Shown one piece after another: positions 4,386 to 35,258 of a stretch of DNA of 64,000 nucleotides. Source of the stretch: Candidatus Babeliales bacterium. GTDB taxonomy: Bacteria; Babelota; Babeliae; Babelales; JBFXEV01. The number at the start of each line of letters is the position of its first letter. The stretch's first letter is position 1. Under the pieces are notes generated by a model. That model ran no database searches, was not told the origin of the DNA, and was given only the letters and a program-made list of their open reading frames with translations. The position numbers and the translations under genes were made by a program. Where the stretch lies: positions 841,994 to 905,993 of the forward strand of contig JBFXEV010000001.1 in NCBI GenBank assembly GCA_050179755.1, read 5' to 3'.

Positions 4386-4387
4386 AC

Positions 4388-4576
4388 CTGCGCCAATCCA
4401 GCCTACGCTTATAGCTCCGGCGGACAGGGGCTCAGAGTTGGAAACCGCTCATCCTGAGTGAATCGCGAAGCGATTTGTATCGAGGGACGGTTGGCAGGCC
4501 AGTTTACTTTAATGCGTAGGTTGCGCGTCGGAGTTAGCCAAGCGAGCGTAGTGAGCCTGAATTAACGTAGGCGGGC
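4388..4576. repeat. GC-rich cluster of short palindromic (REP-like) motifs after tRNA-Leu
   Basis: ccgctcatcctgag (4445-4458) recurs inverted at 63276-63289; internal hairpin aatcgc-gaa-gcgatt; gcctacg (4401) complements cgtaggc (4566). Confidence 0.55.
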
Positions 4577-4617
4577 AGTCTTTTGGATTTTCTTAATACC
4601 TAAAAAAGATAGATTTT

Positions 4618-4956: not shown

Positions 4957-4973
4957 TAAGCCAACAAAAAAGC

Positions 4974-17696: not shown

Positions 17697-17739
17697 TTGA
17701 TATATTAAAAAAGTATAATAATCTTACCTTGAGAGTGGT

Positions 17740-20700
17740 ATGAATAAAAAAAGAGCTTGGAGCATACAGCATATCTTTGGCAGCTTTGCCGTCAATTTAC
17801 TCGTAAGTACTGTTATCTATGCGGCATCCTTTAACTGTGATAGTCCTAACTCCGCTTTAGTGCTTACTCCTGGTGCCACATTCAATATTGTAAATCCTAT
17901 TACTAATTTTAATGGTACGTTAACTATGCCAACCGAATCAACCGTTTCTGGCAGTACTATTACGTTTGCAGGCGGTTATTTACAAGGTACAGGAAATCGT
18001 GCATCGATTACCGGTCTGTATACACCAAGCACTAATCAATTGTCTATGACGGGTAATCATACGTTTAATGCAACGCCAGGCCTTTCGTGGGAACAACTTG
18101 CCGTAAGTGGTACAGGCAACTTGCTTGAAGGTCAACCCACATTTGTAAGCGATATCGTTCTTGCAAATGCAAGCACTGCACTTACTATTGCAATTCAAAA
18201 TACACTAAATGTTAATATAGCGCTTGCAGGTGGTGCGGTAACGCTTGGTAGTGATTTGCGTTTTGCAGATGGCAAAGGTTTTACGGGTAATGGTACAGTT
18301 AATTTAACAAACAATGGTTTAACATTTGGCGGTACGCCACTTGTATGGTCAAATAATATTACGTGGAATAATGCTGGTAACCTGCGTTTACATGGTAAAG
18401 TAAAAGTAACAGGAACTCATACGTTTTCTGGAGTGAGCGCGCTGAATGGAAATGGTAATATTCTTGATCTTTCGGGAGGTGGCTCACTTATTGTGCCGGC
18501 ATCATCAACACTCTATCTTTCTGATCTAGTAATCAAAGGTTTGGGTACAGGTGGTGGCACCATTTTGCTTGCGGCGCCTACTTCACAACTTCGTCTTTCT
18601 CATGTAACGCTTGAGCTCGTAGGGAACTTAACTACATCTCAAGGTTCTATATATATTGAGGGTCCGTCAACAGTTGTTGTTAATAATTTTACGTGGACGG
18701 TGAATTCATCTGGGTTATTGATAGTAGATGGTGTAACTCTTTGGACAGATTCTGTTGGCGCATCATCACCGGGAACGATTACCTTTGGCAGTCCACTTTC
18801 AACATATCTATCGCTTGTTGCAACCGGGACTATTAAGAATGCAGGTTCTGGCTCGGTAACTACTGCGGCTTTTAATGCTTTGAATGCTCGTTTAACAACA
18901 GATGAAACAAATATTACTACACTTCAAGGTCAAATGACTGCCGTAAATAGTAATGTGGCGTTAGTGCAAGGTCAAATGAGTACGGCTAATTCAAATATTA
19001 CTGCTGCTCAAAGTAATATTACAACGCTTCAAGGGCAAATGACCACCGCTACTACTAATATTACTGGAGCACAGGGTAGTATCACAGCACTGCAAAATCG
19101 TGCGGCTGTCGATGAAAGTGCGATTAGTACGTTACAGACAAATATGACAGCTGCACAAAATACTATTGCTTCTGCTCAGTCTAATATCACTGCTTTGACT
19201 ACGCGCATGACTACTGTAGAAGGTAATATAAGTACCGCACAAGATAATATTGCGTCATTGCAAACTAACGTGACGAGTGCACAAGCATCTATTGGCACGT
19301 TGCAAACAAACGCAGCAAATGATGAAAGAAATATTACGGCATTGCAAACAAGCGTTGCCGGAGCGCAAACGTCTCTAACAGGTTTAGGCACGCGTATGAC
19401 AGCTGCCGAAACAAATATTACAGGTGCTCAAGGTTCTATTGGCACATTGCAGACAAATATGAGTGCTGCACAGGGAAATATTACAGCCTTGCAAACTCGT
19501 GTAACTGCAGACGAGAATACGCTTGCCACGGTGCAATCAAATATAACGGCAGCGCAAACAAGTATCACCGGTCTTGGCTCTCGTATGACAACGGCAGAAA
19601 ATAATATTACTGCGTTGCAGTCACGAGTAACAGCTGATGAAACTTCTCTTAGTGGATTGCAAACAAGCGTTACAGCAGCTCAAAATGCCATCGCTACGAA
19701 TCAATCCAGTATTACCGCATTAACCACACGAGTTACTAGTGCAGAAAGTACTATTCATACAGCCCAATCAAATATTACAACATTACAATCAGGCATGACT
19801 AGTGCACAAAACTCGATTGGTACCTTACAAACCAAGCTAACAGCAGATGAAGCCAATATTGCTTCTTTGCAAACAAATGTTGCTGCCGTTCAAACAAGTA
19901 TTACAGGATTAGGCACTCGCGTGAATGCTGCCGAAAGTACTATCACTTCAGCACAAAGTTCACTTACTGCGTTGCAAACAAGTCTTGCATCCTCTCAGGA
20001 TGCCATAACTACATTGCAAACCAATGCAACGGCTGATGAGCAGAATATCGCAACGTTGCAAACTAACATGACGGCAGCACAAAATGATATTACTGCTCTT
20101 GGCACCCGCATGACGAGTGGTGAAAATAATATTACAAGTTTGCAAGGTTCTGTTGCCACATTACAGACAAATGTAACTAATGATGAAAGAAATATTGCCA
20201 CATTACAAACAAACATGGCAAATGCGCAAGGCACTATTACCGGGCTTACCACGCGCATGACAACAGCTGAAGGGGCGATTGTTAATTTGCAAACAAATGC
20301 AGCTTCAGATGAACGTAACATTAGCACACTACAAACAAATGTGACGGGTGCTCAAAATGCTATTACTAGTTTGCAAGGATTAGTTTCTACGTTACAGGCA
20401 AATGTAGCATCCGATGAAAGATCTATTGCAGCATTACAAACAAACATGGGGGGTGCGCAAAGCGCCATTACTACACTGCAGCGCAATGCGCTTATTAATG
20501 AAGGAAACATTCTAACATTACAAACAAATCTATTTTCAGCTCAAAATAATATTAATGTTCTCTTGCCGCGTATGACGAGCGCTGAAAATAATCTAATAAA
20601 TTTACAATTAAATATAGCAACTGCTCAAGAATCGTTGAATCTTTTACTTAGTGAATACCATAAGGTAGTGCATGTAAACGGTCATATGGTGTTTGATCAT

Positions 20701-23700
20701 GCACGAATGCTCAGAGAACATGGCGCACTCATATTTGAATTTTGTCCTGGTCGCCTAGATGATTTACCGACAATTACCTTTGTAAAAAATACACAGCTTG
20801 AAATGCCAAGGAATGCGCACCTCGTGTTTAAGGGACATGGCACCGTGATTTTAAAAGATGGTGTTCAGCTTACCTTGAACAGTGAAGTTGCAAAAAATAA
20901 ACCAACGTTAGTGTTTGATGATAATGCTACGTTGCGTGTTGCAAAAAATGGGCAAGCTGCAATAGCGGGCCGTGGTACCATTTGCTTGCAAAATGGCGGT
21001 TCATTTGAATTGACAAAGAAATCTCAATTAGTGCTTGGCACAAGCTCACGTGATGTGATTCACGTGGAAATGAAACAATTTGGTGCATTATCATTGCAGC
21101 ACCGTGATGCAGAAATTGCTTTTGCACATGGCCAGTTTGATATTCTTGCTGATTTGTGTGGTGTAATAAATATTGCGCGAGGTCGGTTATGCTTGAATGC
21201 GCGGCATCAAACTGAAGCGCCAGGGCGTATTAAACATTTTGCGTTGCGAGGTAATTCACTATTGCATATTGATCAAGGTCAGTTGGTGTTGGGTGATAAC
21301 AGTGATAATAGTAAAACATTTATTGATTGTACTTCAGGCCTGATTCAGGGTCATGGCAGAATGCGTTATCTCTCGAGCAATGCTCTTATAGACATTCAAA
21401 ATAATCCATTTATAGGCAGTTATGATATCATAACAATCTTTATGAAGCTTGGGTATATTGTGCCAGATGAAAAATCGCAGCCTTCTATTCTTGTGCATTC
21501 ATTTGATAAACTGGCAGCATTTTTGCCAGTGCGCGATGGTAGCATTGTGCGTCTTGAGCCAGGCGATCACGCAATTACTTATAGAGATGATGGTATTTTT
21601 GGATATGATCGCGATAAACGCTTATTTAGTATTAATCGTGATGGTACAAGAAATCGTATTGGCGATCTTGAACCGCTTGGCTGTTGCGATTTAATTACGC
21701 AAGCAGAATCTAACATTGCCAATTTAGAAGCGTTAACAAACCAATTATCAGGGCGTGTGGTTTCAGCTGAAAGTGGTATTTCTGTTTTGCAAACACGCGC
21801 AACTAACGATGAAGCAGCAATAACCCAGTTGCAGGTAAATGCGCAAGCAGCGCAGACAAATATTACGGGATTACAAAGCAGTATCTCCACTGTTCAACTT
21901 GGTCTTGCATCCGCGCAAAGCTCAATTGCTTCGTTGCAAACAAATGCGACAGTAGATGAAAGCCATATTACAACTTTACAAGCTAATATGGCGATAGCAC
22001 AAAATAATGTTGCGGGACTTACTACGCGCATGACTCTGGCTGAGGGTGGGTTGGGTTCAGCGCAAAGTGCTATCAGCGCATTGCAATCGCGAGCCACAAC
22101 GCACGAGAGTTTGTTGAGTGCGTTGCAATCTAATATGACTAACGCCCAAACAAATATCACGAGCCTAGGTTCTCGTATGGCCACTGCGGAAGGTGCGATT
22201 TCTTTACTGCAAAACAATATGAGTGGTTTGCAATTAAATGTTACAGGATGTCAAACAAATATTGCTGCGCTTGCTGCCAGAGCATTAATCGATGAAAGTA
22301 ATATTAGTGCGTTGCACGATGGATTTGCAACAACACAAACAGCTGTTAGTGGTCTTGGCATACGCATGGCAAGTACAGAAGGGGCTGTGACTATTTTGCA
22401 AAATAATGTGAGTACGTTGCAAGCTGATGTTATTGCCACGCAAAGCGTATGTACCGCACTTCAAACGAGTGCTCTTGCTGATGAGCATGCTATTTGGGCA
22501 TTACAAAGTAATATGACTATGGCACAAAGTAGTATTAACGTTCTTGATGCGCGTGTTACTAGTGTTGAAGAGGATTTGCAAGTTGCACAAGGGGCACTTG
22601 GTAGCCTGCAAACAAACCTTGCTCATGATGAAAGTGTTTTGTCGATTTTACAAGACAATGTTGCAGGCACACAAAGTGGCATTAGCTTACTTCAAACACG
22701 CATGGGAGTAGCAGAAAACACTTTGACGATTGCACAAGCACATATTGCCGCGTTATTGAGTAATATGCTTTCTGCCCAAGGTGCCATTAGCACGTTACAA
22801 ACAAATGCTTTAGCTGATGAGCATGCAATTGCTGTATTGCAAAATAATATCAGCAGCGCACAAACAACTATTGGCAGTTTATCAACACGGATGAATCAGG
22901 CAGAGGGAGCACTTACGGTAGCGCAAGGCAGTATTATTCATTTACAAACAACAATGACCACGGTGCAAAACTTGGTCGATACGCTTGACCTTGCACGAGA
23001 ATTAAATGAGCAAGTTATTAGAGCATTACAAACAGATGCTGTAACTAAAACAACACAGATTCAGGGATTAGAATCGCAAATTGATTCTTGTCAGTCTAAC
23101 ATTCAAGCTACTCAAACAGCTTTGAGTGCTTTGCAGCAACGAGTGACTATCGATGAAAGCAATTTAGTAAGCATAGAGTCTGGTTTGCAAAGTACCGTTA
23201 ATGCTCTTTCCGATATTACTGATCGTGTGACGATGGCAGAAGTTGATATTCAAATTACGGTAACAACGCTTGCTGCGTTGCAAACAACTATGACCATTGT
23301 TGAACATGATTTAAGTGCTGCGCACGCAAATATACTTGCATTGAACGGCCGCATGGCCAGCGCCGAGCATGAAATTGATATGTTGCAATCGGCGACGCAT
23401 CTCTTGGATACTCGATTAATTGTTGCAACACAATCCATAGATCTTATAAATGAGAGAATGGGCATAGCAGAGCAAGATATTGTGTTACTTGCAACGGCAA
23501 CGGCAGAAATTGCAAATCGCGTAATGGTTTTAGAAAATACTACCATTGCCTTTAATCAAGAACTTGATCAGTTAGTGACAGGTTCACAGTTGCAGCAAAA
23601 TTTATTGTCAATTAACTATCGGTTATATAACGCGGAAGCACACATAACCACCGCTCAAATTGATATTGCTGATGTAAAAAATCGTGTTGATAATGCTGAA

Positions 23701-26700
23701 ATGTTGCTTTCTCTTTTTGATACTACAACGCTTGCTTTTGCTAATCGCATGCTGCAGATTGAATCTGTGGATTTTGATTTCCAAAATCAGATTGATGCAC
23801 TCAACACAAGTACTTTGGTGCTTCAACAAGAAATTAATGAACTTATTCAACGTAACCAGGCAGCGGATGGTTTGCTTGAAACATATAGTCTTCAATTTGT
23901 GCAAGATGCTCTACGCCTTGCAATGCTCGAAACTGCAACGCAGTATCTAGAGGCGAGTTTAGATGTGGGGCAAAGTGATATGCAAGCCATTGTACAACGA
24001 GTTTCTGTTCTTGAATCAACTGATAATGAGCTTGTTCAAGCAGTAGATTTACTTAATGCAAGTACATACATCTTGCAGCAAGAGTTAGATGTATTGAGCG
24101 GGCAGATGATTAACGCACAAAATGGCCTTGGAGCGTTGCAAACACAGCTTAATGCTGATGAGAATGCCATTGGTGTATTGCAAACGACTCTTTCTCATGC
24201 ACAAAGTACTGTTATGGGCCTTGCTAATCGAATAAGCAGCGCTGAAACTCATATTGCGATCGATGAGCAACGCATGCTTGCTATGCAAGTTAACATGGCT
24301 GATGCACAAACTACTATTCTAACACTTACCAGTCAAATGGCAGGAGCGCAAGAAGCAATTATTGCAGCACAAGCGCACTTGTTTAGTCATGATATTGCGT
24401 TAAATCTAGTGCAAAGTGCACTGGTTGATACACAAACTGCATTGAATGTACTTCACATGCAAAATGCTCTAGATGAGCAAGCTATCGCTGCATTGCAAGT
24501 TGACATGCTTGCTACGCAAACGCATATTACGGATCTTACTATGCGTAGTGATCTTACAGAAAGTGCGTTAGCACAACAGCATGAAGCGTTAGCTGCAGTG
24601 CAACAACAGGCGTTGATTGACGAACATGCTCTTGCTGTAGTGCAATCGACTTTGAGTACTGCACAAACGGCTATTGACGTGTTATCAGGGCGCACGAGCA
24701 ACACAGAAAGTGCATTGGTTGGTGTGCAGGGTGCTTTGAGCATTGTGCAAACCAACATGCAAGTTGCGCAAAGCACTATAAGTACTTTACAAGCCAATGC
24801 ATTAACTGATGAAGCAAGTATTGTTCAATTACAAACGAATATGATCGATACGCAATTAGCTATTGCAGGTCTTGATACGCGTGTGGGCAATGCACAAGAT
24901 GATGTTACTAGTATTCAATCAGATGTGCTGGTATTACAAGTAACTATGACCAGTGTACAACATGATATTGCGCAACTGCATAATGAAAATGCTCTAGAAC
25001 AGAATATGCTTGGAACATTGCAAATGCAATTGCTTGAAAGTCAAACGCATATTATAGAGCTCACAACAGATATGCTTCAAGCAGACTTTGCCATTGGTTT
25101 GTTGCAAATGCAAAGAGCAGATGATGAGCTAGCAATAGCTGCATTGCAATCAGGTTTAGTGGCAGCACAACAGACTGAAGAGCTTTTAGATAATCGTTTA
25201 GTGCGTGCACAAAATGCTCTTGATATGTTAGATTCGGCAACGCAGGCATTAAGTTCTCGTGTAGATTCATTAGAATTAGTTGATAGAGAACACAACGAAT
25301 TATTTGAATTGGTGAGTGCAAGCACGGGTAGTTTACGTGAATTTGTTCAAGTGCTCGACCAGCAACTGAGCAGTGCGCAGGCACATATTATGCAGCTAGA
25401 AACGAGTACGCAAGCATTAGCTGCACGTGTTGGTGACATTGAAATTATCGATACTCATATGCAGCAGCAGATTGCAATGCTTATTACAAGCACGCAAGCG
25501 TTGCAACAAGAAATTACTGGATTAATGAGTGATGTATTACACCTTCAAGACAATGTAATGACATTGAGTCAGCAAACGGGAATGGCGCAGCAAGATATTA
25601 TGACGTTGCAATCTTGTTGTACGGAACATGATGCGCGTCTTATTGCGTTGGAACAAGCAGGCATTAGTTTTAATGAGGAATTGGATATGCTTGTTTCCAA
25701 CACTGAGTTTCAACAGAATTTGCGATCACTTAATTATAGGCTACAACTTGCAGAAACAAATCTGAGCGGGGCGCAAACAGACATTGAATTGCTTGATGGT
25801 CGTATGCTTATTGCGCAAGATGTACTTTCAAATTTGGTAACAGCAAGTGCTGTATTTGATACTCGTTTACTTACGTTAGAATCTGCTGATCGAAGTTTCC
25901 AAGATCAGGTTGATTTGCTCTATGCACACACAGGAGCATTACAAGTTTTAGTTGACGGCCTGAGTCAAAGAGTTGATAGTGCAGAGTCTGCAGTGCATAT
26001 GTTAGATACGGCAACCCAAGCACTTGATAGTCGTATTGCTACTATTGAAATTACAGATGCACATGTGCAAACTCAGCTTGATGCATTGCATACAAGTACG
26101 GTGCACGCACAAGTGCAATTTAATGATCTTGGCATGCATATGAATCAGGCACAAACAATGTTAACCGCACATGGCAATCGTTTAGATATGTATAGTGATA
26201 CGCTTGATCTGTTAAGTACGGCAACACACAGCCTAGATATGCGCTCGCTTACTGCACAAACAAATCTTGATGCCTTAGTTGTTCGTCTGACTGCAGATGA
26301 AACAATTGCTGCGCAATTATCACATGACGTTGAATTGCTTTCATCAAGTACTTCGTTCTTGCAAACAACATTAAATGAATTAGCGTTGCGCACAACAAGT
26401 TGTGAGATGACGCTTTCTCAATTAGCAGATGCGCAAAATCAAGATGAGGTTGCCATCGCCATATTGCAAACTGGTATGAGCGCTGCACAGGATACACTTA
26501 CAGGCCTTTCAGGTAGAACGGCACAAACAGAATTTGCACTTACTGATGCACAAGCAAGTATCGAAACGCTTGAAACGAGTGTTATTACCGCGCAGGGTGG
26601 TATTGCAATTTTGCAAAATCAAATGACGCTTGCACAATCTAATATTGCGAACTTGCAATTTAATGCGCACATTGATGAAAATATGCTGAGTGTATTGACT

Positions 26701-29700
26701 GCACATATGCAGAATGCGCAAGCTGATATTCATGATATTGAAGCGCAGGCTATATCTGTGCGTTATACGGTTTCAACCTTGCACGATGATTTGCAGCAGG
26801 TACAAACCCGCGTTACGGGCCTGAGTATGTCTATGGATATAGCGCAAGCAGACATACTAACCGCGCATGATGCAATTTCATTATTGCAAACTCAAAGAAC
26901 AGCAGATGTGAATGCGCTTACGCTCATACAAAGTAACGTATCGCTTACTCAAAATAATCTTGCAGCACTTACCGATCGCTTGCAACAAGATGAAGATAAT
27001 GCTTTTACCTTGCAAATAACAGTATCACAAGCAGAGCATAAACTTGCTACTATGCAAGATACTCTTATAACGCATAATCAAGAAATGGCTGGATTGAGCA
27101 CGAGAATATCACATGCACAGGAGGCAATTGATACGTTGGATACCACCACGGTATATTTGAAAGAACTTATTGATCTTCAAGCGGTAATTGACACTCAATT
27201 ACAGCAGCAACTTGGCATGGTTGCCACTGCAACAGCATTGCTCAGTACGCAGGTACATCTTCTTGATGGATCGTTGCAAATAGCGCTTCAGAATATGGCA
27301 GTCCTTACAGGATCGCTTGAAGATGCACAAGTTGACATTGCATTGTTAAGCAGTGATACAGGAAACTTGGCAAATAGGGTAGCAGTTCTTGAAGCAACTG
27401 ACATAGTATTTAATGATGAGATAGAGGGATTATTAACTAATACGCAGTTACAGCAAAATCTTCTTTCACTTAATTATCGTCTTAATGCAGCAGAAAGTAC
27501 ACTTACGCAGGCACAGTCAGAAATTTCTACACTTGAATATCATACGCAATCAGCACAAACTGCGTTGACATTGTTACAAACGATAACGAGTGACTTTGCC
27601 ACACGTATTGCCTTGTTAGAAGACCAGGATAATAACTTTCAAACGCAACTTGATGCGTTACATACAAGCACGCATATAGTACAACAAGAGTTAGACTCGC
27701 TTTCTGGGCGTTTACAACTTACTGAGTACACTATTACTTCATTAGAACAGACAGCTACCCTGCTAGGGCAGCAACTAAGAAGTGCACAAGATGCATTTGC
27801 AGCGTGTCAAACTCAGCAACAAGATGCTAATGAAAACATTACAGAGTTGCAAACAACAGTTGACCTTATGCAAGATGGATTATTTGTACTTAAGCTTACT
27901 CTGTCTCGCGATGAGAGTGACTTAAGAGTAGCACAGCATGATATCAGTTTGGCACAGACGAGTATAGCAGCGCTTGATGCTCGATCCTCAATCGCTTCTG
28001 CATCAATTACTGCATTAGATACAGCATTGAATGCTTTGCAAGCTAACGTATCACATGATGAAAATCTTTTGAGTACATTGCAAACAACTATGACAACAGC
28101 GCATAGTGTTCAAGCAGCTTTACACACAAGGCTTACTGCAATTGAAGGTGTTTCAGTGAGTACTCAGCAGTCTTTGTCATTATTCCAAACTCAACTACTG
28201 ACTGCGCAAAATGACATGGCAGTTGCAGAAGGTACCCTTAGTGACCTTGGTGCACGCATGGACCTTACGCAAGCTGGTATTGCTTTGTTACAAACAGCTA
28301 CATCATGGCTACAAAATGCACTGAGTACTGTTACGGATTCATGTGAGCAGCTTACGGTTTGGCAGTCTCGAGCAGATACTCTCTTTGAGAACTTGGCTAC
28401 TGTTACAAACAACTTATCTGTCTGTTGCACTGAATTAGCTTCATTTGAAGATCATGTTCTGCAAGAATTGACACTCATTAAAACAAGTACGGGCGTATTG
28501 CAAGCAGAGCTTGACGAGCTTGATATCTACATGAGTAACGCACAAAGCTTACTTACTAATTTAAGTAGCGAGGTTGTAACGTTAGATGCACGTATTGCCT
28601 TAGATGAAAATGCAGACCAAGCACTACAAACGTTGGTGCAAGATGCGCAGAGCAAGATATTAGGGCTTGATACTCGCATACTACGTGCAGAAGGCAGTAT
28701 TACTGCTCATCATGATATACTTGCAACATTACAAACACAAGTAAATACAGACGCTGCAGCACTTATTAATCTTCAAAGTACTACTGTTGCAGCACAGCAT
28801 GAAATTGCCGCCCTAGCAGATCGCATAATAACTGTGGAAGGTGCCGTACGTATGCTGCAAGAAGACGAGCAGGTTGAACAGATTAAGCTTGCAGCGGTTG
28901 AAAATAGAGTGAACGCGTTAGAAGTGCAAACACTGCGCAATGAAAATATGGTAAGCGATTTAGTGACTTCCTTATCATTAACGCACATTGCGCAAAATGA
29001 GTACGATATACGTCTTGAAAATATAGAAAATGATCTAGTAACAGTCCATACAAATATAATTTCACTGCATACTACGCAACAGCAAGATGAAGCCTTAGTT
29101 AATCAATTGCACAGTAACTATATTTCGTTACAATCTACAATGACTTTGGTTCAAGCGTTAATAGCGCCCTTTGAGGAATTGCAAAATAATTACATGCAAT
29201 TTGAATCACGAATTACTGATATTGAAAATACGCTTGTTGATGTAGTTCCATCAGTATCAAATTTACAACATGCTTTTGTTATTGCAGAAGATAGCATTGC
29301 AGTGTTGCAGGATGCATATAATGCAGATGCGCAGTATATAAGCCAGTTGCAAACTTCGGTAACCCTCATTGAGCAAGAGCAAATTGACCATGCGCTGCGA
29401 TTGAGTGTGCTTGAAGATGCAGTACGTGCAGAAAAAGCTGGTCTTGCATCTATGCAAATAACTATGAGCTTCTGTGCACAAGATGTAAGTTCTCTTATTA
29501 TCGATTGTGCAAATAATCAACTTCACATGAATACCTTGCAACAAGACATATTTGCAGTACAAGGCGCACTTCTTGGCTTAGATACGCGCATGATTAGTGC
29601 AGAACATGCACTGGAAAAAGATCAAAGTGCTATTAAAGCATTGCAAGATGAAGATGCTGTAGACGATATTTCGATTGCAACGTTAGCTTCTACATTAAGT

Positions 29701-32247
29701 AGTGCGCAAAGTGATATTACGGGTCTCAAAACAAATATGTTTACCGTGCAAGATGGGCTAAGCACGTTACAAACAGGCGTAGCTGCTTTGGGTACTGGAG
29801 TAATCGATGTTCAAAACGCTGTATCAGTTGTTGAAGCGCGGCTTACAACTGATGAAAACACGCTCACTGCTTTAGGGGCAGCAGCAATTACTACACAAGA
29901 GCTTTTGACTAACGTCGATAGTCGTGTAACAACGGTTCAAAGTGAGCTTGGCTTTGCACAAAGTGAACTTGCAGTGTTACAGAATGCACAAGCAAGCGAT
30001 GCAAACACTCTTGCATTAGTGCAACAGATAACGCAGCAGCATGAAAATGATATTACGACGTTACAGATTACTATGTCTACTGCTCAACATACGGTCAGTA
30101 ATTTGAATACGCGCATATCTCAATTAGAAAATGATGATGTGTCAATGCAAAATACGCTCATCTTAGTGCAAAATAGACTACAACATGATGAAACTGCTCT
30201 TTCATCTCTTGCGCTTACCGTGAGCAGCGTGCAAGCAGATTTGAGCGGAGTGACTGCGCGTATGGCTCTTGCTGAAAGTGCAGTTTTTGCACAGCAGCTT
30301 TTAACAACTGATTTGCAAAACCGAGAAACGGCTGTCGAAGGCGCAGTGCTTACATTACAAGCACAGGTGAATGCCCATGAAAATACTTTAGGCACTCTAC
30401 AGCATGAAATGAGTGAATTGTATACTACCGTGAGCGTAGTGAGCAGCAGAGTTGCTTTAGATGAAGCGGTTCTTGCAAGAAGCCTATCAGATATAGGTAC
30501 GTTGCAGTACACGGTGACAGCATTGCAGACTTCTATTGCTGGATTGCAAGGAGAAATAATGATTGATGATAATCATATTACTACATTGCAATCAAATATG
30601 GTGGTAGCACAATCTGATATAAAGGCACTTGATATGCGCGTTGCTAATGATGAGGCGGCGCTTGTACATGCACAAAGCAGTCTAGGTAATTTGCAAAATT
30701 CAGTGCAATTAGATAAGACAGCAATTGGTACGTTACAAATAGATGTCCAGGCTGCACAATCTGATATAACAGCGCTTGGTAGTCGAGCAATAGCGTTAGA
30801 AGATGGTCTTATGGCAACGCAGTCAACGGTATTTACACTTAAGGCACACATGCTTGCAGATGACGCTATTTTAGGATCAGTGATTTCTGGCATTACCGTG
30901 GCAAATAATGCGCTTGCGCTTCTTGATGGCAAAACAAATCTATTGGATACTGCCGTATCTCAATTAGAACGAGATTTTGGCTTGATGCAAACTTTTACAC
31001 AAACGGTGCATGCTCGTTTAACTGCAGATGAATTGCTGCTTGATAGTTTGCGTATGTGTTGTTCTAGCTACCAAACGCAAGTAGATGCATTCAATGTTCA
31101 AATAGATGCGGTTGTTGATCAAATGAATGTACTTAGGCCGACAGTTCAAGCCGCGATTGATGGAATACACGATCAAGTAGTGGCTCTTAATGCGAACACA
31201 GAGCGTATTGAGCAACAAATTGCACAATTAGGTACGCAAGTGGGTACCAGTTGTGTTGTAACTATTGATGGCACAATGATATTTAATCATCAAGATGAGT
31301 TGCAAGAAGGCGCGGCACTTATTTTCCAATTTAACTCATGTAGATCACTTGATGTACCGCAATTGATCTTTGAAAAAGATATGGTGGTCACCATACCTCA
31401 AAATTCACGGCTTATTTTCAGAGGAGAAGGTGTTATAGTGCTCGAAGATGGGGTGCAGTTTGTGTTCACCGGATCAACTGAAGTTACTGCATCGGTCATG
31501 ATTCTTGAACGAAATTGTAATATGGAGCTTGCAGATTCTGCTATGGCACATATGCATGGTCAAGGTACTTTATTTATTCGTGATGGCGGCACTATACGTT
31601 TAACTAAACCATCGCAATTATTGTTTGGCAAGCAAGCGACTGACGTATTTAATCTTAATCTTATGCGTTTTGGCACGCTCCTTGTTGAACATGATGATGC
31701 TGAAATTTCATTTAACGAGGGCATATTTGATATTATTGCCGATCCGGTTGGCATCATTACCATTAACCGTGGTAGGATATGCATGAATCCTTATAATGCA
31801 TCAGGTTATATACGGCAGCTTTCAATACTAAATAGTTCAATTTTGCAAACTGATAAAGGCTGCTTAGTATTAAATACTAATGGTGATGATCAGCTTACGC
31901 GGTTTGATACTACTGGCGGTATTATCAGAGGTAAAAACGGTATTCGTTATAAACCATCAAATACCAATATTGATTTACAGCAAAATACTATTAAAGGTGA
32001 TTTTAGTATGTTGCAAATATTTATGGAGCTTGGCTACATTTATCATGACGAACGGCCAGGTTCATGGATTTTGGTTAAATCTGGCGATGATCTTGCAGCC
32101 TTGCGTGCCGTGCGTGATGGTACAACTGTGTTGTTACAAGAAGGTGATCATGACGTATGGTATGGCAATGCAAATGATATATATGGTTATGATAAAGTGA
32201 ATAAATTGTTTAGAAACGATGCAAAAAACATAAGAACAGTTCAGTAA
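17740..32247 (+). CDS. Giant 4835-aa secreted coiled-coil fibre protein
   Basis: Signal peptide VIYA-ASF; N-terminal beta-solenoid (to ~aa 370); heptad repeats aa ~375-970 and ~1317-4500; homologous ~330-aa domains at aa ~975-1305 and ~4501-4835. Confidence 0.9.
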   Translation: MNKKRAWSIQHIFGSFAVNLLVSTVIYAASFNCDSPNSALVLTPGATFNIVNPITNFNGTLTMPTESTVSGSTITFAGGYLQGTGNRASITGLYTPSTNQLSMTGNHTFNATPGLSWEQLAVSGTGNLLEGQPTFVSDIVLANASTALTIAIQNTLNVNIALAGGAVTLGSDLRFADGKGFTGNGTVNLTNNGLTFGGTPLVWSNNITWNNAGNLRLHGKVKVTGTHTFSGVSALNGNGNILDLSGGGSLIVPASSTLYLSDLVIKGLGTGGGTILLAAPTSQLRLSHVTLELVGNLTTSQGSIYIEGPSTVVVNNFTWTVNSSGLLIVDGVTLWTDSVGASSPGTITFGSPLSTYLSLVATGTIKNAGSGSVTTAAFNALNARLTTDETNITTLQGQMTAVNSNVALVQGQMSTANSNITAAQSNITTLQGQMTTATTNITGAQGSITALQNRAAVDESAISTLQTNMTAAQNTIASAQSNITALTTRMTTVEGNISTAQDNIASLQTNVTSAQASIGTLQTNAANDERNITALQTSVAGAQTSLTGLGTRMTAAETNITGAQGSIGTLQTNMSAAQGNITALQTRVTADENTLATVQSNITAAQTSITGLGSRMTTAENNITALQSRVTADETSLSGLQTSVTAAQNAIATNQSSITALTTRVTSAESTIHTAQSNITTLQSGMTSAQNSIGTLQTKLTADEANIASLQTNVAAVQTSITGLGTRVNAAESTITSAQSSLTALQTSLASSQDAITTLQTNATADEQNIATLQTNMTAAQNDITALGTRMTSGENNITSLQGSVATLQTNVTNDERNIATLQTNMANAQGTITGLTTRMTTAEGAIVNLQTNAASDERNISTLQTNVTGAQNAITSLQGLVSTLQANVASDERSIAALQTNMGGAQSAITTLQRNALINEGNILTLQTNLFSAQNNINVLLPRMTSAENNLINLQLNIATAQESLNLLLSEYHKVVHVNGHMVFDHARMLREHGALIFEFCPGRLDDLPTITFVKNTQLEMPRNAHLVFKGHGTVILKDGVQLTLNSEVAKNKPTLVFDDNATLRVAKNGQAAIAGRGTICLQNGGSFELTKKSQLVLGTSSRDVIHVEMKQFGALSLQHRDAEIAFAHGQFDILADLCGVINIARGRLCLNARHQTEAPGRIKHFALRGNSLLHIDQGQLVLGDNSDNSKTFIDCTSGLIQGHGRMRYLSSNALIDIQNNPFIGSYDIITIFMKLGYIVPDEKSQPSILVHSFDKLAAFLPVRDGSIVRLEPGDHAITYRDDGIFGYDRDKRLFSINRDGTRNRIGDLEPLGCCDLITQAESNIANLEALTNQLSGRVVSAESGISVLQTRATNDEAAITQLQVNAQAAQTNITGLQSSISTVQLGLASAQSSIASLQTNATVDESHITTLQANMAIAQNNVAGLTTRMTLAEGGLGSAQSAISALQSRATTHESLLSALQSNMTNAQTNITSLGSRMATAEGAISLLQNNMSGLQLNVTGCQTNIAALAARALIDESNISALHDGFATTQTAVSGLGIRMASTEGAVTILQNNVSTLQADVIATQSVCTALQTSALADEHAIWALQSNMTMAQSSINVLDARVTSVEEDLQVAQGALGSLQTNLAHDESVLSILQDNVAGTQSGISLLQTRMGVAENTLTIAQAHIAALLSNMLSAQGAISTLQTNALADEHAIAVLQNNISSAQTTIGSLSTRMNQAEGALTVAQGSIIHLQTTMTTVQNLVDTLDLARELNEQVIRALQTDAVTKTTQIQGLESQIDSCQSNIQATQTALSALQQRVTIDESNLVSIESGLQSTVNALSDITDRVTMAEVDIQITVTTLAALQTTMTIVEHDLSAAHANILALNGRMASAEHEIDMLQSATHLLDTRLIVATQSIDLINERMGIAEQDIVLLATATAEIANRVMVLENTTIAFNQELDQLVTGSQLQQNLLSINYRLYNAEAHITTAQIDIADVKNRVDNAEMLLSLFDTTTLAFANRMLQIESVDFDFQNQIDALNTSTLVLQQEINELIQRNQAADGLLETYSLQFVQDALRLAMLETATQYLEASLDVGQSDMQAIVQRVSVLESTDNELVQAVDLLNASTYILQQELDVLSGQMINAQNGLGALQTQLNADENAIGVLQTTLSHAQSTVMGLANRISSAETHIAIDEQRMLAMQVNMADAQTTILTLTSQMAGAQEAIIAAQAHLFSHDIALNLVQSALVDTQTALNVLHMQNALDEQAIAALQVDMLATQTHITDLTMRSDLTESALAQQHEALAAVQQQALIDEHALAVVQSTLSTAQTAIDVLSGRTSNTESALVGVQGALSIVQTNMQVAQSTISTLQANALTDEASIVQLQTNMIDTQLAIAGLDTRVGNAQDDVTSIQSDVLVLQVTMTSVQHDIAQLHNENALEQNMLGTLQMQLLESQTHIIELTTDMLQADFAIGLLQMQRADDELAIAALQSGLVAAQQTEELLDNRLVRAQNALDMLDSATQALSSRVDSLELVDREHNELFELVSASTGSLREFVQVLDQQLSSAQAHIMQLETSTQALAARVGDIEIIDTHMQQQIAMLITSTQALQQEITGLMSDVLHLQDNVMTLSQQTGMAQQDIMTLQSCCTEHDARLIALEQAGISFNEELDMLVSNTEFQQNLRSLNYRLQLAETNLSGAQTDIELLDGRMLIAQDVLSNLVTASAVFDTRLLTLESADRSFQDQVDLLYAHTGALQVLVDGLSQRVDSAESAVHMLDTATQALDSRIATIEITDAHVQTQLDALHTSTVHAQVQFNDLGMHMNQAQTMLTAHGNRLDMYSDTLDLLSTATHSLDMRSLTAQTNLDALVVRLTADETIAAQLSHDVELLSSSTSFLQTTLNELALRTTSCEMTLSQLADAQNQDEVAIAILQTGMSAAQDTLTGLSGRTAQTEFALTDAQASIETLETSVITAQGGIAILQNQMTLAQSNIANLQFNAHIDENMLSVLTAHMQNAQADIHDIEAQAISVRYTVSTLHDDLQQVQTRVTGLSMSMDIAQADILTAHDAISLLQTQRTADVNALTLIQSNVSLTQNNLAALTDRLQQDEDNAFTLQITVSQAEHKLATMQDTLITHNQEMAGLSTRISHAQEAIDTLDTTTVYLKELIDLQAVIDTQLQQQLGMVATATALLSTQVHLLDGSLQIALQNMAVLTGSLEDAQVDIALLSSDTGNLANRVAVLEATDIVFNDEIEGLLTNTQLQQNLLSLNYRLNAAESTLTQAQSEISTLEYHTQSAQTALTLLQTITSDFATRIALLEDQDNNFQTQLDALHTSTHIVQQELDSLSGRLQLTEYTITSLEQTATLLGQQLRSAQDAFAACQTQQQDANENITELQTTVDLMQDGLFVLKLTLSRDESDLRVAQHDISLAQTSIAALDARSSIASASITALDTALNALQANVSHDENLLSTLQTTMTTAHSVQAALHTRLTAIEGVSVSTQQSLSLFQTQLLTAQNDMAVAEGTLSDLGARMDLTQAGIALLQTATSWLQNALSTVTDSCEQLTVWQSRADTLFENLATVTNNLSVCCTELASFEDHVLQELTLIKTSTGVLQAELDELDIYMSNAQSLLTNLSSEVVTLDARIALDENADQALQTLVQDAQSKILGLDTRILRAEGSITAHHDILATLQTQVNTDAAALINLQSTTVAAQHEIAALADRIITVEGAVRMLQEDEQVEQIKLAAVENRVNALEVQTLRNENMVSDLVTSLSLTHIAQNEYDIRLENIENDLVTVHTNIISLHTTQQQDEALVNQLHSNYISLQSTMTLVQALIAPFEELQNNYMQFESRITDIENTLVDVVPSVSNLQHAFVIAEDSIAVLQDAYNADAQYISQLQTSVTLIEQEQIDHALRLSVLEDAVRAEKAGLASMQITMSFCAQDVSSLIIDCANNQLHMNTLQQDIFAVQGALLGLDTRMISAEHALEKDQSAIKALQDEDAVDDISIATLASTLSSAQSDITGLKTNMFTVQDGLSTLQTGVAALGTGVIDVQNAVSVVEARLTTDENTLTALGAAAITTQELLTNVDSRVTTVQSELGFAQSELAVLQNAQASDANTLALVQQITQQHENDITTLQITMSTAQHTVSNLNTRISQLENDDVSMQNTLILVQNRLQHDETALSSLALTVSSVQADLSGVTARMALAESAVFAQQLLTTDLQNRETAVEGAVLTLQAQVNAHENTLGTLQHEMSELYTTVSVVSSRVALDEAVLARSLSDIGTLQYTVTALQTSIAGLQGEIMIDDNHITTLQSNMVVAQSDIKALDMRVANDEAALVHAQSSLGNLQNSVQLDKTAIGTLQIDVQAAQSDITALGSRAIALEDGLMATQSTVFTLKAHMLADDAILGSVISGITVANNALALLDGKTNLLDTAVSQLERDFGLMQTFTQTVHARLTADELLLDSLRMCCSSYQTQVDAFNVQIDAVVDQMNVLRPTVQAAIDGIHDQVVALNANTERIEQQIAQLGTQVGTSCVVTIDGTMIFNHQDELQEGAALIFQFNSCRSLDVPQLIFEKDMVVTIPQNSRLIFRGEGVIVLEDGVQFVFTGSTEVTASVMILERNCNMELADSAMAHMHGQGTLFIRDGGTIRLTKPSQLLFGKQATDVFNLNLMRFGTLLVEHDDAEISFNEGIFDIIADPVGIITINRGRICMNPYNASGYIRQLSILNSSILQTDKGCLVLNTNGDDQLTRFDTTGGIIRGKNGIRYKPSNTNIDLQQNTIKGDFSMLQIFMELGYIYHDERPGSWILVKSGDDLAALRAVRDGTTVLLQEGDHDVWYGNANDIYGYDKVNKLFRNDAKNIRTVQ

Positions 32248-32261
32248 AGATGGAGCATTGA

Positions 32262-33794
32262 GTGAAACTATCTACGTACCTATTTCTTGGCATGGGCATT
32301 TTAACGAGTGGTACTATTATCGCGCGTTCATGCAATCTTTCAAATATACTGCTGCAGCCTGGTGGATATTATGTTTTTCCATGTAAAGAAGAGCTTGTAG
32401 AATGTGCACAGCCATGTAATGCAACTTGGTATAAGCAGGTAACAAATGCACATGGCGTAGGAACGTATGATAATTATTATTCTTTTCTTTTTGGTGATTG
32501 TAAAAAACACTTTTTATTTCAAGCCTTTTTTTATGGGTGTTTGGCAGACAAAGGTTTTAATGATGCCAAACAAAAAGTGCCCTTGAGTACGTTGATATTT
32601 GGTAATCCTTTTACGATAGAAGATGCCAATCTTGCCTCGCGCTTGGCAGCGCAGGGTTTGCTTACATTGCCCACAAGGCCGGGAATGCCACGCCCGTATG
32701 GTTCAATTCCTGATGAGCAATATATTGCATTACTTGCACCAACTAATGTTAACGTTTCATCTGAGCAACAAGAGTTAGGATTAAATTTAACTGGTATGTA
32801 TTATGCACGTATACCGGGAACCAGAAAATTATTGGGTGTCCTTGGGCTTATGATTCCCATAATTAGTCAACGTCATCGCATGGATATAAGTTATGATAAT
32901 GGCTCATTAATTTCTCCAGCAGTGCCACCGCCCAGCGTGCCTGGTCAAACAACGTTAACACAATTTTTTTCTTATTTTGAAAGCGTAGATGATTTTTTTA
33001 CACGTGGCGTGCTTGCTCCTAAAGGGTTAACATGTAATGTGCGTCAGCGGCGGACGAGTATTGGTGATGTGGTGGCATTAACGGCTTTTGATTTTTCTGG
33101 CTGCTCAACTTGGTGTGATGCTTGTTTGCTTGGTATGCAATGGGTGTTTCCTACGGGCAATAAGCAACATGGCACACGCGTATGGCCACTAGAACTTGGC
33201 AATGGCGGATCGTATCAATTTGAACCATTTCTGAATATATATGCCACTATGTTTACATGGATTAATCCAATATTTTATATTGGCGGTAGATTTAGTACTT
33301 CATATACGGGCATACGGCGAGTTCCACAATTAAAAAGTGGTTCTTCCGGGCAAGCACTTTTAGATACGAGCGTGCTTATACCGCCAGGTTTTGAAAATTA
33401 TATTGTAACACCAGGGGAATCTTTTAGTGAGTTTGATACAACAGTTCTGCAGCTTGCCGATGCGCGCGTGCAAGCAAGAATTCATCCTGGAGCACAAATG
33501 CTTGTGCGTATGGGGAATTTTTTTGAAGAATTTTTAATTGATTGTTTAGACCTTGGCATTTTTTATGACGTTTACATGCAGAAAAAAGAAAGAATTGGGG
33601 TGCTTGATGTTGGTATATTTAATACAGAATTGTTAGAAAGGCACTCGGTAAGAACAGAGCATCTTATTAGTTGGCGTCTTGGTTATACGCATAATGATGT
33701 TCTTCAAGCGTATGTTGGCTCGCAGCACGTGGTAGCAGGTAAAAATGTAGCGCAAGATAATAAAATATATGCATCGTTAATCGCATATTTTTAA
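32262..33794 (+). CDS. Putative outer-membrane beta-barrel protein
   Basis: GTG start after GGAG; signal peptide; alternating strands; IGD...FPTGN...LGNGG motifs; C-terminal YASLIAYF (BAM-type terminal Phe). Confidence 0.65.
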   Translation: MKLSTYLFLGMGILTSGTIIARSCNLSNILLQPGGYYVFPCKEELVECAQPCNATWYKQVTNAHGVGTYDNYYSFLFGDCKKHFLFQAFFYGCLADKGFNDAKQKVPLSTLIFGNPFTIEDANLASRLAAQGLLTLPTRPGMPRPYGSIPDEQYIALLAPTNVNVSSEQQELGLNLTGMYYARIPGTRKLLGVLGLMIPIISQRHRMDISYDNGSLISPAVPPPSVPGQTTLTQFFSYFESVDDFFTRGVLAPKGLTCNVRQRRTSIGDVVALTAFDFSGCSTWCDACLLGMQWVFPTGNKQHGTRVWPLELGNGGSYQFEPFLNIYATMFTWINPIFYIGGRFSTSYTGIRRVPQLKSGSSGQALLDTSVLIPPGFENYIVTPGESFSEFDTTVLQLADARVQARIHPGAQMLVRMGNFFEEFLIDCLDLGIFYDVYMQKKERIGVLDVGIFNTELLERHSVRTEHLISWRLGYTHNDVLQAYVGSQHVVAGKNVAQDNKIYASLIAYF

Positions 33795-33818
33795 AAAATT
33801 ACAAAAAGGGAGTTATGT

Positions 33819-35255: not shown

Positions 35256-35258
35256 CAG

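What the first reader, a model, noticed from the sequence alone, without database searches (positions are those of the whole stretch)
17740..32247. Fibre architecture: head - 600-aa stalk - domain X - 3200-aa stalk - domain X
Seen: aa ~975-1305 (20660-21660) and ~4501-4835 (31240-32247) align end to end: ALIFEF/ALIFQF, LVFKGHGTVILKDGVQ/LIFRGEGVIVLEDGVQ, DAEIAFAHGQFDILAD/DAEISFNEGIFDIIAD, IFMKLGYI/IFMELGYI, VRDGSIVRLEPGDH/VRDGTTVLLQEGDH. The first copy is richer in H/R/K, the second in D/E. About 3780 heptad residues at ~0.15 nm per residue give ~0.55 micron, comparable to a small cell. Inference: domain X was originally a C-terminal trimerisation, anchor or export domain, and the gene arose by fusing a second stalk+X unit behind a complete 1300-aa fibre. 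The internal X could be a knob or processing point.
Basis: partly seen in the sequence, partly recalled or inferred. Interest (0 to 1): 0.78.

Follow-up and report, generated by a model that had tools for sequence, protein, structure and literature searches.

The report
Giant bacterial fibre with duplicated end-domain
A small-genome, probably host-dependent bacterium encodes a half-micron coiled-coil fibre that carries two copies of a beta-helix end-domain which, in its relatives, always sits once at the protein's end, just before the gene for an outer-membrane barrel.

Summary
Window 17740-32247 (+) is one 4835-aa ORF. It reads: signal peptide, beta-helix head, 589-aa heptad stalk, domain X1 (aa 975-1317), 3184-aa heptad stalk, domain X2 (aa 4502-4835). 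X1 and X2 are 40% identical (E 6e-87). Three metagenome assemblies carry the whole stretch without a single difference.

X is predicted with high confidence (pLDDT 94) to be a right-handed parallel beta-helix with a roughly 95-residue cap. It matches no Pfam or NCBIfam family. A profile finds 171 relatives among 1.84 billion proteins. In the 150 listed, X occurs once and at the C-terminus; only this protein has two copies.

New here: the 510-aa gene 14 bases downstream (32262-33794) looks like an outer-membrane barrel. Its homologues lie directly downstream of X-ending genes at 76 of 108 places across the phylum sample. The sister genome's 5362-aa ortholog has neither X nor this barrel.

Best reading: a surface fibre, probably trimeric, coupled by X to a dedicated barrel. 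X1 is a retained duplicate. The coupling rests on gene order only; the binding prediction gave no answer.

The parts
17740..32247 (+). Whole gene: 4835-aa fibre protein (mature form about 514 kDa)
   Evidence: Single ORF. Three contigs cover it with 0 differences. Mass.
17740..17823 (+). Signal peptide, aa 1-28 (KKR, a hydrophobic run, then ...IYA|AS)
   Evidence: Read by eye; no predictor was run. Relatives begin in the same way.
17824..18894 (+). Head, aa 29-385: Gly/Asn/Thr-rich beta-solenoid-like module
   Evidence: No Pfam or NCBIfam family. A full-length N-terminal match is found in 54 of 150 X-family relatives (phmmer). Profile-profile comparison with X gives probability 91%, E 1e-6 over 148 columns. 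The G001 ortholog has three copies.
18895..20661 (+). Stalk 1, aa 386-974: 589 residues in one unbroken heptad register, built of 175-residue (25-heptad) repeats
   Evidence: Core positions: a = I/M/V/L 90%, d = L/A 77%, e = Q/E 85%.
20662..21690 (+). X1, aa 975-1317: internal full copy of domain X
   Evidence: It keeps all 11 residues that are invariant or nearly invariant in the 28-row family alignment.
21691..31242 (+). Stalk 2, aa 1318-4501: 3184 heptad residues in 9 register segments. It contains three super-modules 40-47% identical (about aa 1876-2100, 2551-2800, 3151-3300) and Cys-Cys doublets at aa 1315, 2626, 3562 and 4440.
   Evidence: No proline in most 150-aa bins.
31243..32244 (+). 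X2, aa 4502-4835: terminal copy of domain X. It is a right-handed parallel beta-helix plus a cap of about 95 aa, ending in a conserved F-x-I...R motif.
   Evidence: AF2 model with pLDDT 94.2 and pTM 0.90. VIA-align: the top 50 hits are all beta-helices, the best at Z 15.1. Conserved columns.
32262..33794 (+). Partner gene: 510-aa exported protein, a probable outer-membrane beta-barrel, 14 bases behind the fibre gene
   Evidence: Its N-terminus looks like a signal peptide and it ends ...YASLIAYF. 20 of 22 family members end in F. Atlas structural neighbours are PF13557 barrels, TM 0.67/0.81 over 380 aa. Its homologues lie next to X genes.
9609..17696 (+). Three upstream paralog genes (1653 aa, 693 aa with WD40, 358 aa) that share the head module
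   Evidence: The shared N-terminal motifs are visible in the translations. WD40 match. The G000 head matches the syntenic 1670-aa frame of G001 at E 1e-12 to 7e-23. Synteny with G001.
33819..35849 (+). Two downstream exported Q/E/K/A-rich proteins (478 and 196 aa). Both are conserved behind the G001 ortholog, so they belong to the locus and not to X.
   Evidence: No Pfam family.

Best explanation
This is one real gene for a Sec-exported fibrous surface protein of about 514 kDa. The organism is a small-genome bacterium, Babeliales/Dependentiae according to earlier notes of this scan.

Shown:
- The layout is an N-terminal beta-solenoid head, two canonical heptad coiled-coil stalks (589 and 3184 residues, about 0.56 micron if extended), and two copies of domain X.
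- X is predicted as a right-handed parallel beta-helix with a conserved C-terminal cap.
- X defines an undescribed family confined, as far as searched, to this phylum. In every other member X is single and terminal.
- The gene that ends in X is followed on the same strand by a gene of one barrel-like family.

Inferred:
- After Sec export, X, and most likely its cap and extreme C-terminal motif, is what the dedicated outer-membrane barrel recognises. The barrel then passes the protein across the outer membrane, holds it there, or both.
- X2 therefore sits at the cell-proximal end and the head at the tip. X1 forms a knob about 90 nm below the head.
- The stalk is a parallel homo-oligomer, probably a trimer. 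The evidence is 44 in-register R-h-x-x-h-E motifs and Cys-Cys doublets, each with one Cys in a core position, which could staple the chains.
- X1 arose by duplication of 'stalk end + X' within this lineage. It is maintained as a folded domain rather than decaying.
For: - Single ORF with identical assemblies.
- X duplication: 40% identity, E 6e-87.
- X fold: pLDDT 94.2. All 50 listed VIA-align matches are beta-helix proteins: 5nxk_A SRRP Z 15.1, rmsd 3.8 over 230 aa; Vag8 13.6; polygalacturonase 13.6.
- Family size: 171 proteins at E<=1e-3 among 1.84 billion. X found in 76 of 261 genomes of the phylum sample.
- Position: X is terminal in 143 of 150 relatives and doubled only here. No other genome of the 261 has two full X in one frame.
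- Partner: homologues in 79 of 201 genomes. A partner lies within 5 kb downstream on the same strand at 60 of 78 X places and at 76 of 108 places with the X-only profile. Twelve of the 32 misses are at contig ends. Of 200 genomes, 64 have both, 4 have X only and 14 have the partner only.
- Barrel character of the partner: terminal F in 20 of 22 members. Atlas neighbours are PF13557 barrels, a family of outer-membrane channels (PMC9581022, passages).
- The same-genus genome lacks both X and a full-length partner, having only a distant paralog at E 5e-8 over the last 80 positions.
- Stalk. Motif count is 44, with R at position g in 44 of 44, against about 0.9 expected from shuffles. The motif is called a trimerisation motif in PMC6173795 (passages).
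- X1 keeps all 11 conserved family residues.
- Quick tree: (P0003,(X1,(X2,P0002))) with SH-aLRT 83/83/99.
- P0002, a fragment from another organism, aligns over stalk end, Cys-Cys and X at 51% identity.
Against: - No physical evidence links X and the barrel; the link is gene order and co-occurrence among related genomes, which are not independent.
- The same-genus ortholog is an equally long fibre with neither X nor the partner. X plus barrel therefore cannot be indispensable for making or exporting such a fibre.
- The beta-helix fold of X is the fold of adhesin binding regions and glycan-cleaving enzymes. That fits a ligand-binding tip as well as a docking module.
- The barrel call rests on a mediocre Atlas model (pTM 0.66, pLDDT 0.59), on the C-terminal signature, and on no sequence family.
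- 14 of 200 genomes have a partner match without X.
- The oligomeric state rests on a motif only.
- The tree is a quick one with support of 83 at the key forks, and the careful search did not finish.
- The signal peptide was judged by eye.
Confidence: 0.55

Rival explanations
1. X is the distal, ligand-binding (or glycan-cleaving) end of the fibre. The two copies give two specificities, and the N-terminal head is the cell-proximal part. The downstream barrel is only a co-expressed exporter or channel and does not bind X.
For: The best structural matches of X are adhesin binding regions and polysaccharide lyases or hydrolases: SRRP Z 15.1, PL6 13.5, PfbA 12.6, tailspikes 11-13. X1 and X2 differ in charge, pI 7.8 against 4.9, as expected for diverged binding surfaces. 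PF13557-type barrels are described as uptake channels for hydrophobic molecules (PMC9581022, passages).
Against: The head is itself a beta-solenoid of the same superfamily. It is the module that is multiplied in the neighbouring genes and in G001, as expected of the variable outward part. The strict order 'X end, then barrel gene', and the joint absence of both from G001, tie the barrel to X specifically. The columns conserved across the family are mostly Gly, Asn and Phe, which are structural residues; no catalytic set was identified.
Confidence: 0.25
2. The protein is not anchored. It is released into the host cell or vacuole, where the long coiled coil tethers or scaffolds host structures. 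The barrel serves only as its exit pore.
For: Relatives of this phylum export very many signal-peptide proteins as presumed effectors, and one replicates wrapped by the host mitochondrion (PMC6561590, passages). The window also carries four ankyrin-repeat genes and a WD40 gene. The G001 ortholog has no X and no barrel.
Against: Head-stalk-head layouts with unbroken heptads over hundreds of residues are typical of surface fibres such as trimeric autotransporters (AtaA, 3630 aa; abstract in the search listing). Cys-Cys doublets in core positions fit an oxidising, extracellular or periplasmic setting. There is no host-targeting motif or eukaryote-like domain in the protein.
Confidence: 0.15
3. 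The internal X marks a processing site. The precursor is cut just behind X1 (about aa 1310-1317) into a standard-size fibre (head-stalk-X) and a second stalk-X rod, each ending in the family's terminal motif.
For: X1 keeps the complete terminal motif that in relatives lies 0-15 aa from the C-terminus (44 of 150 relatives have a full X to the end). The 1317-aa N-terminal part has family-typical size and layout. A Pro/Gly-containing linker and a Cys-Cys doublet follow X1 directly.
Against: No protease or self-cleaving family was found in X or nearby. The heptad stalk resumes within about 10 residues. The G001 ortholog has internal heads with no sign of being split.
Confidence: 0.1
4. Artefact: two genes or repeats were wrongly joined by assembly, or a hidden stop splits the ORF.
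For: The gene is highly repetitive, and repeats are prone to collapse or misjoin.
Against: Three separate contig assemblies hold all 17,001 bases with 0 differences and 0 gaps, although they may include the source sample. The ORF is open throughout. The syntenic ortholog in G001 is also one ORF, of 5362 aa.
Confidence: 0.02

Closest known systems
Trimeric autotransporter adhesins (type Vc), e.g. AtaA of Acinetobacter sp. Tol 5, a homotrimer of 3630-aa chains (abstract seen in the search listing; the rest is recalled)
   Same: A signal peptide, an N-terminal head, very long coiled-coil stalks interrupted by further head-like knobs, and a C-terminal end presumed to be at the outer membrane. The size is of the same order.
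   Different: There is no YadA-type anchor in the polypeptide (0 Pfam families in the last 365 aa). The terminal domain is a single-chain-type right-handed beta-helix. The barrel is a separate gene of another family. The trimeric state was not tested.
Two-partner secretion (type Vb): TpsA/TpsB, e.g. FHA/FhaC and HMW1/HMW1B (PMC5422565, passages)
   Same: A large Sec-exported beta-helix-containing exoprotein is encoded next to a dedicated outer-membrane barrel. A beta-helical domain is the presumed recognition and folding module. TPS domains of HMW1 and EtpA are among the fold matches of X (Z 11.8 and 11.5).
   Different: The TPS domain is N-terminal, whereas X is C-terminal. TpsB is a 16-strand Omp85 barrel with two POTRA domains, and 0 of 22 partner members match those Pfam families. 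The TPS matches score no better than dozens of other beta-helices.
Serine-rich-repeat protein binding region of Limosilactobacillus reuteri (PDB 5nxk) and autotransporter passengers (Vag8, UpaB, Fap2)
   Same: These are the best fold matches of X: Z 15.1, 13.6, 13.1 and 12.4 over 219-238 aligned residues. All are surface adhesin modules built as right-handed beta-solenoids.
   Different: Sequence identity is 6-11%. No sequence family is shared. The similarity is at fold level only and says nothing about function.
Type IX secretion C-terminal domain with the FadL-like barrel PorV
   Same: The analogy is that a conserved C-terminal domain acts as the sorting tag that an outer-membrane barrel of the small-channel type binds.
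   Different: It is a different fold (a small beta-sandwich against a 335-aa beta-helix plus cap), a different phylum and a many-component machine. Nothing here tests it.

Membership tests
Domain X family (unnamed; defined in this report) | A domain of about 335 aa that matches the X profile | tested here: met
   X1 scores 3e-205 and X2 scores 3e-199 against the two-copy profile; this is circular because the profile was built from them. Both also match the independent 10-row profile at about 1e-127.
Domain X family (unnamed; defined in this report) | Single copy at the extreme C-terminus | tested here: not met
   X2 meets it. X1 is internal, with 3518 residues behind it. 143 of 150 relatives have at most 40 aa behind X, and none has two copies.
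Domain X family (unnamed; defined in this report) | Gene followed on the same strand by a gene of the 510-aa barrel-like family | tested here: met
   The gap here is 14 bases. Elsewhere the pairing holds at 76 of 108 places.
Right-handed parallel beta-helix fold (pectate-lyase-like) | Stacked three-sided coils of short strands; fold-level match to solved beta-helices | tested here: met
   The model has pLDDT 94.2. There are 152 chains with Z>=8, and all top 50 are beta-helix proteins. Foldseek gave no match at E<=1e-3.
Trimeric autotransporter adhesin (type Vc) | C-terminal YadA-like membrane anchor in the same chain | tested here: not met
   No Pfam or NCBIfam family in the last 365 aa. That region folds as a beta-helix.
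Trimeric autotransporter adhesin (type Vc) | Trimeric coiled-coil stalk | tested here: inconclusive
   Heptads are clear. There are 44 in-register R-h-x-x-h-E motifs. No test of oligomeric state was run.
Two-partner secretion (type Vb) | N-terminal TPS domain in the exported protein | tested here: not met
   No Pfam family in aa 1-420. The barrel-linked conserved domain is C-terminal.
Two-partner secretion (type Vb) | Omp85-type transporter with POTRA domains | tested here: not met
   0 of 22 partner-family members match POTRA or ShlB-type families at E<=1. A profile search against PDB sequences gave nothing below E 0.49.
Classical autotransporter (type Va) | 12-strand barrel domain fused at the C-terminus of the passenger | tested here: not met
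   No such Pfam hit. The barrel-like protein is a separate ORF.
COG4313 / PF13557 outer-membrane channels (for the 510-aa partner) | Match to the Pfam model; 12-strand barrel fold | tested here: inconclusive
   By sequence, 1 of 22 members matches, at E 0.15. By predicted structure, the neighbours are PF13557 clusters, TM 0.67/0.81 over 380 aa, but the Atlas model has pLDDT 0.59.

The most novel reading that the evidence does not exclude
Domain X and the downstream barrel form a previously undescribed outer-membrane export-and-anchor pair of Dependentiae. It works like type V secretion but matches none of its classes: a C-terminal beta-helix-plus-cap domain is recognised by a small non-Omp85 barrel encoded right behind it. 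In this genome the pair carries a disulfide-stapled trimeric coiled coil longer than the cell, with a second X as a mid-fibre knob or second docking point.
Probability: 0.35. Interest if true: 0.8.

Novelty: new variant of a known kind. Interest (0 to 1): 0.62.

Why it matters
Dependentiae are widespread parasites of protists, and how they attach to and enter hosts is essentially unknown. One cultured member has cells of only 350-400 nm (PMC6561590, passages).

A conserved two-gene module, a beta-helix protein ending in X plus a barrel, is present in roughly a third of the sampled genomes. That gives a concrete, testable candidate for their surface-display route. The 4835-aa version would project about 0.56 micron, further than that cell is wide.

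The family also shows how fibres grow: heptad blocks and whole end-domains are duplicated in frame. Two sister species differ in which knob is multiplied, X here and the head there.

Tried and rejected
- Word-indexed homologue searches with either X region found nothing.
- The search for related loci with the 28-row alignment was not accepted because it had no conserved stretch. With the two-copy alignment it found nothing.
- A 30-base 16S pattern in genome contigs found nothing. I could therefore not name the organism myself.
- The first AF2 model, from 2 rows, was poor in the last 100 residues. I replaced it.
- Foldseek against PDB gave no match at E<=1e-3 with either model.
- Complex prediction with the barrel (aa 24-510) and X2 gave no answer, score 0.00. 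This is neither support nor evidence against binding.
- The Atlas search with X2 gave nothing usable, best score 0.79.
- A PDB profile search with the partner family gave nothing below E 0.49.
- No RNA holder was listed among the sequencing runs.
- Whole-protein self-BLAST returned only the diagonal. I replaced it with 150-aa windows.
- N-x-S/T sequons are not enriched in stalk 1: 22 against 17.0 +/- 3.4, and 44 of 500 shuffles reach that count.
- The careful tree search did not finish, so the quick tree was used.
- Pfam on the 'middle' genes of other loci and on the two downstream genes gave nothing above the cut-offs.
- NCBIfam hits of the stalk (SMC, Rad50 and others) are all below their curated cut-offs, except the coiled-coil PgrA domain (96.8 against 70). 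I read them as compositional coiled-coil matches.
Full report
**Observation**

Window 17740-32247 (+) is a single open frame of 4835 codons. A profile made from the two reported copies places X1 at aa 975-1317 and X2 at aa 4502-4835. BLASTP between them gives 129 of 322 identical residues, E 6e-87, with four gap positions. The similarity starts about 45-70 residues upstream, in the last part of each stalk.

The two stalks have a dominant 3.5-residue hydrophobic period; the head and X do not. Stalk 1 (aa 386-973) keeps one heptad register throughout, and stalk 2 has nine register segments. Core positions are canonical: a = I/M/V/L, d = L/A with some D, e = Q/E, g = N/S/R.

Its length estimate also holds, at 560 nm for 3773 stalk residues.

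Logan contigs of three runs from one study each carry window 17000-34000 in one piece, without a difference or a gap. These runs may include the source sample, so they speak against a misjoin but are not independent proof.

**What X is**

Pfam and NCBIfam name nothing in the head, X1 or X2. With a 28-row alignment, AlphaFold2 models X2 at pLDDT 94.2 and pTM 0.90. A first model from two rows was poor in its last third.

Foldseek finds nothing at E<=1e-3. The exhaustive VIA-align search gives 152 chains at Z>=8. All 50 listed are right-handed parallel beta-helix proteins:
- the binding region of a Limosilactobacillus reuteri serine-rich-repeat adhesin (Z 15.1, rmsd 3.8 over 230 residues)
- the Vag8 passenger (Z 13.6)
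- polygalacturonase (Z 13.6)
- PL6 lyases, UpaB, Fap2, tailspikes and the TPS domains of HMW1 and EtpA (Z 11.5-13.5)

X is therefore a beta-helix of about 240 residues with a cap of about 95 residues. No single functional class stands out. A profile-profile comparison links the beta-helix core of X to the N-terminal head at probability 91%, E 1e-6 over 148 columns. The protein's knobs are thus diverged versions of one solenoid module.

**The family**

The two-copy profile finds 171 proteins at E<=1e-3 (81 at 1e-10, 13 at 1e-30) among 1.84 billion representatives. In the 150 listed:
- X occurs once.
- At most 40 residues follow it in 143 proteins, after allowing for unmatched profile positions. 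In six the tail is 41-56 residues, and one weak hit has 220.
- 44 have a full X that runs to within 15 residues of the end.
- Only the window's protein has two copies.

Fifty-four of the 150 also begin with a full-length head. Many members of about 1200 aa are all-beta. A subset has a coiled-coil stalk between head and X: for example 1020 aa with about 280 stalk residues, 1601 aa with about 875, and 2472 aa with about 1600.

In whole genomes, an X-only profile matches 76 of 261 genomes of the phylum sample. X-ending frames reach 3084, 2548 and 2305 aa, and none has two full X in one frame. The window's protein is the extreme of a continuum and the only one with an internal X.

**The neighbour**

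Fourteen bases behind the stop lies a 510-aa ORF with a signal-peptide-like start that ends ...YASLIAYF. Its homologues occur in 79 of 201 genomes of the order. Setting their coordinates against those of X gives:
- 60 of 78 X places have one within 5 kb downstream on the same strand (profile A2).
- 76 of 108 places do so with the X-only profile, and 12 of the 32 misses lie at a contig end, where the downstream DNA is missing.
- Of 200 genomes, 64 have both, 4 have only X and 14 have only the partner (seven X places in genomes not searched for the partner were dropped).

Related genomes are not independent, so these are counts and not a test.

In 18 fetched loci the pair is seen gene by gene, sometimes with one extra unnamed gene between. 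Twenty of 22 partner ORFs end in F after alternating hydrophobic residues, which I recall as the usual outer-membrane beta-signal. The family has no Pfam match and no PDB sequence relative. The ESM Atlas holds a model of this very protein (pTM 0.66, pLDDT 0.59). Its structural neighbours are PF13557 clusters, TM 0.67/0.81 over 380 residues, and PF13557 is a family of outer-membrane channels (PMC9581022, passages). I read the partner as a probable outer-membrane barrel of an unnamed family. Its fold still needs a proper model.

**The sister genome**

The same-genus genome G001 has the same gene order: OPT transporter, a protein of about 1660 aa with several heads, a WD40 protein, a head-only protein of about 356 aa, then a giant ORF.

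Its giant is 5362 aa. It reads head - short stalk - head - short stalk - head - stalk of about 4000 aa, and it ends in coiled coil with no X. It is followed directly by the Q/E/K/A-rich genes that in the window come after the barrel. G001 has no full-length partner homologue, only a distant paralog that the window's genome also has.

Three things follow:
- Internal beta-helix knobs in the first quarter of the fibre are a feature of the genus and not an accident of one gene.
- X and the barrel go together, in presence and in absence.
- X plus barrel cannot be essential for making such a fibre. This is the main argument against a pure export role.

**Origin of the two copies**

Stalk 1 is built of 175-residue repeats that are 56-60% identical. 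The start of stalk 2 is 41-47% identical to stalk 1. Stalk 2 holds three super-modules at offsets of 706 and 580 residues. The same modules are visible in G001, so the long stalk predates the split of the two species.

A quick maximum-likelihood tree of 34 X domains gives (P0003,(X1,(X2,P0002))) with SH-aLRT 83, 83 and 99 (the careful search did not finish). P0002 is a 478-aa fragment from another organism. It aligns with the window's stalk end, Cys-Cys doublet and X2 at 51% identity over 486 columns.

The duplication that gave X1 and X2 is therefore lineage-specific but older than the split from P0002's organism. The data do not decide between two routes:
- a head-stalk-X gene fused to a stalk-X unit
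- a duplication of stalk end plus X inside one gene

They also do not decide whether G001 lost X2 and the barrel in one deletion or never had them. X1 retains all 11 residues that are invariant or nearly invariant in the family alignment, including the terminal F...R motif. That argues that X1 is still a folded, selected domain.

**Oligomeric state**

The motif R-h-x-x-h-E occurs 44 times in the stalks, always with R at heptad position g. Shuffles of the same segments give about 0.9 in total. PMC6173795 (passages) calls this a conserved trimerisation motif, citing Kammerer et al. 2005 (cited there; not read).

Four Cys-Cys doublets (aa 1315, 2626, 3562, 4440) each place one Cys at an a or d position. 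I worked this out by hand from the Cys positions and register phases. The doublet before X2 is conserved in P0002. Both observations fit a parallel, in-register, probably trimeric and disulfide-stapled rod. This is inference only.

**Mechanism proposed**

After Sec export, the dedicated barrel recognises X, most plausibly its cap and extreme C-terminal motif. The barrel lets the protein cross the outer membrane, holds it there, or both. The stalk then projects the head about 0.56 micron outward, with X1 as a knob about 90 nm below the tip.

Shown are the anatomy, the predicted fold, the terminal position of X in the family and the gene pairing. Inferred are the barrel fold, the contact, the orientation and the oligomer.

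The rivals are:
- X as the distal binding tip
- a released host-directed tether
- cleavage behind X1
- an assembly artefact

They are weighed in their own sections.

**Comparison with known systems**

The protein works most like a trimeric autotransporter adhesin or a two-partner-secretion exoprotein, but it fails the defining features of both:
- no YadA-type anchor and no fused barrel
- no N-terminal TPS domain
- a partner that is not an Omp85/POTRA protein (0 of 22 members; TPS features from PMC5422565, passages)

I found no description of such a module in Dependentiae. The searches were for Dependentiae with coiled-coil or giant protein, with outer membrane, adhesin or Babeliales, and with autotransporter, two-partner secretion, beta-helix or fibrous. 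The passages found for my search terms in the Chromulinavorax paper mention only a Sec system and many signal-peptide proteins.

**Organism**

I could not name the organism with my own calls. Earlier notes of this scan call it Babeliales, phylum Dependentiae. The evidence is consistent with that:
- a 1.525-Mb single-contig genome
- relatives of about 1 Mb
- four ankyrin-repeat genes and a WD40 gene in the window

The same notes describe another barrel-plus-partner operon and another long fibre gene in this genome. I found that a distant paralog of the partner barrel (599 aa, E 2e-11) lies between two large exported ORFs near genome position 13-15 kb. That fits a wider habit of pairing barrels with large exported proteins.

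Noticed in passing
L029:2272-18360 (-), genome G001: The same-genus ortholog is 5362 aa. It has three head copies separated by short stalks and no X. N-x-S/T sequons are enriched: 190 against 126 +/- 9.7 in shuffles, and 0 of 500 shuffles reach that count.
   Followed up: partly
window 21682-21687, 25615-25620, 28423-28428, 31057-31062 (aa 1315, 2626, 3562, 4440): There are four Cys-Cys doublets in or at the ends of stalk 2, each with one Cys in a heptad core position. The last is conserved in the fragment P0002. They may be inter-chain disulfide staples.
   Followed up: partly
window 44571-45458 (+): A 295-aa ORF ends in a Bacterial toxin 35 domain (PF15534, E 3.7e-12, above the cut-off). It is followed by small ORFs, one with a TPR repeat. 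This may be a polymorphic toxin with its immunity genes.
   Followed up: no
window 409-6722: There are four ankyrin-repeat genes in a row, on both strands. This is typical of host-associated bacteria.
   Followed up: no
L056:6928-14013 (+) = G000:C1:1328927-1336013: Four tandem ORFs of 503-584 aa have signal-peptide-like starts. Three of them match a 60-residue stretch of the partner-barrel profile (E 1e-8 to 1e-5). The four end in aromatic or hydrophobic residues. They may be a wider outer-membrane protein family.
   Followed up: partly
L055:3898-13626 (-) = G000:C1:9897-19625: A 599-aa distant paralog of the partner barrel (E 2e-11, ending ...GFGMFF) lies between a 1445-aa and a 1160-aa ORF. 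Neither has a head or an X by my profiles.
   Followed up: partly
L046:2495-3703, L047:2190-3395, L050:2044-3099, L051:1395-2552: In several families of the order, an extra gene of 250-400 aa sits between the X-ending gene and the barrel gene. It has no Pfam family above the cut-off. The window lacks it.
   Followed up: partly
P0018 aa about 1331-1470; P0035 aa about 456-1050: Some X-family relatives carry Gly/Pro-rich stretches, up to 43 of 70 residues, inside or in place of the coiled-coil stalk. These may be collagen-like spacers.
   Followed up: no
window 57324-60671 (-): A 1115-aa ORF has no Pfam family at E<=1e-5.
   Followed up: no
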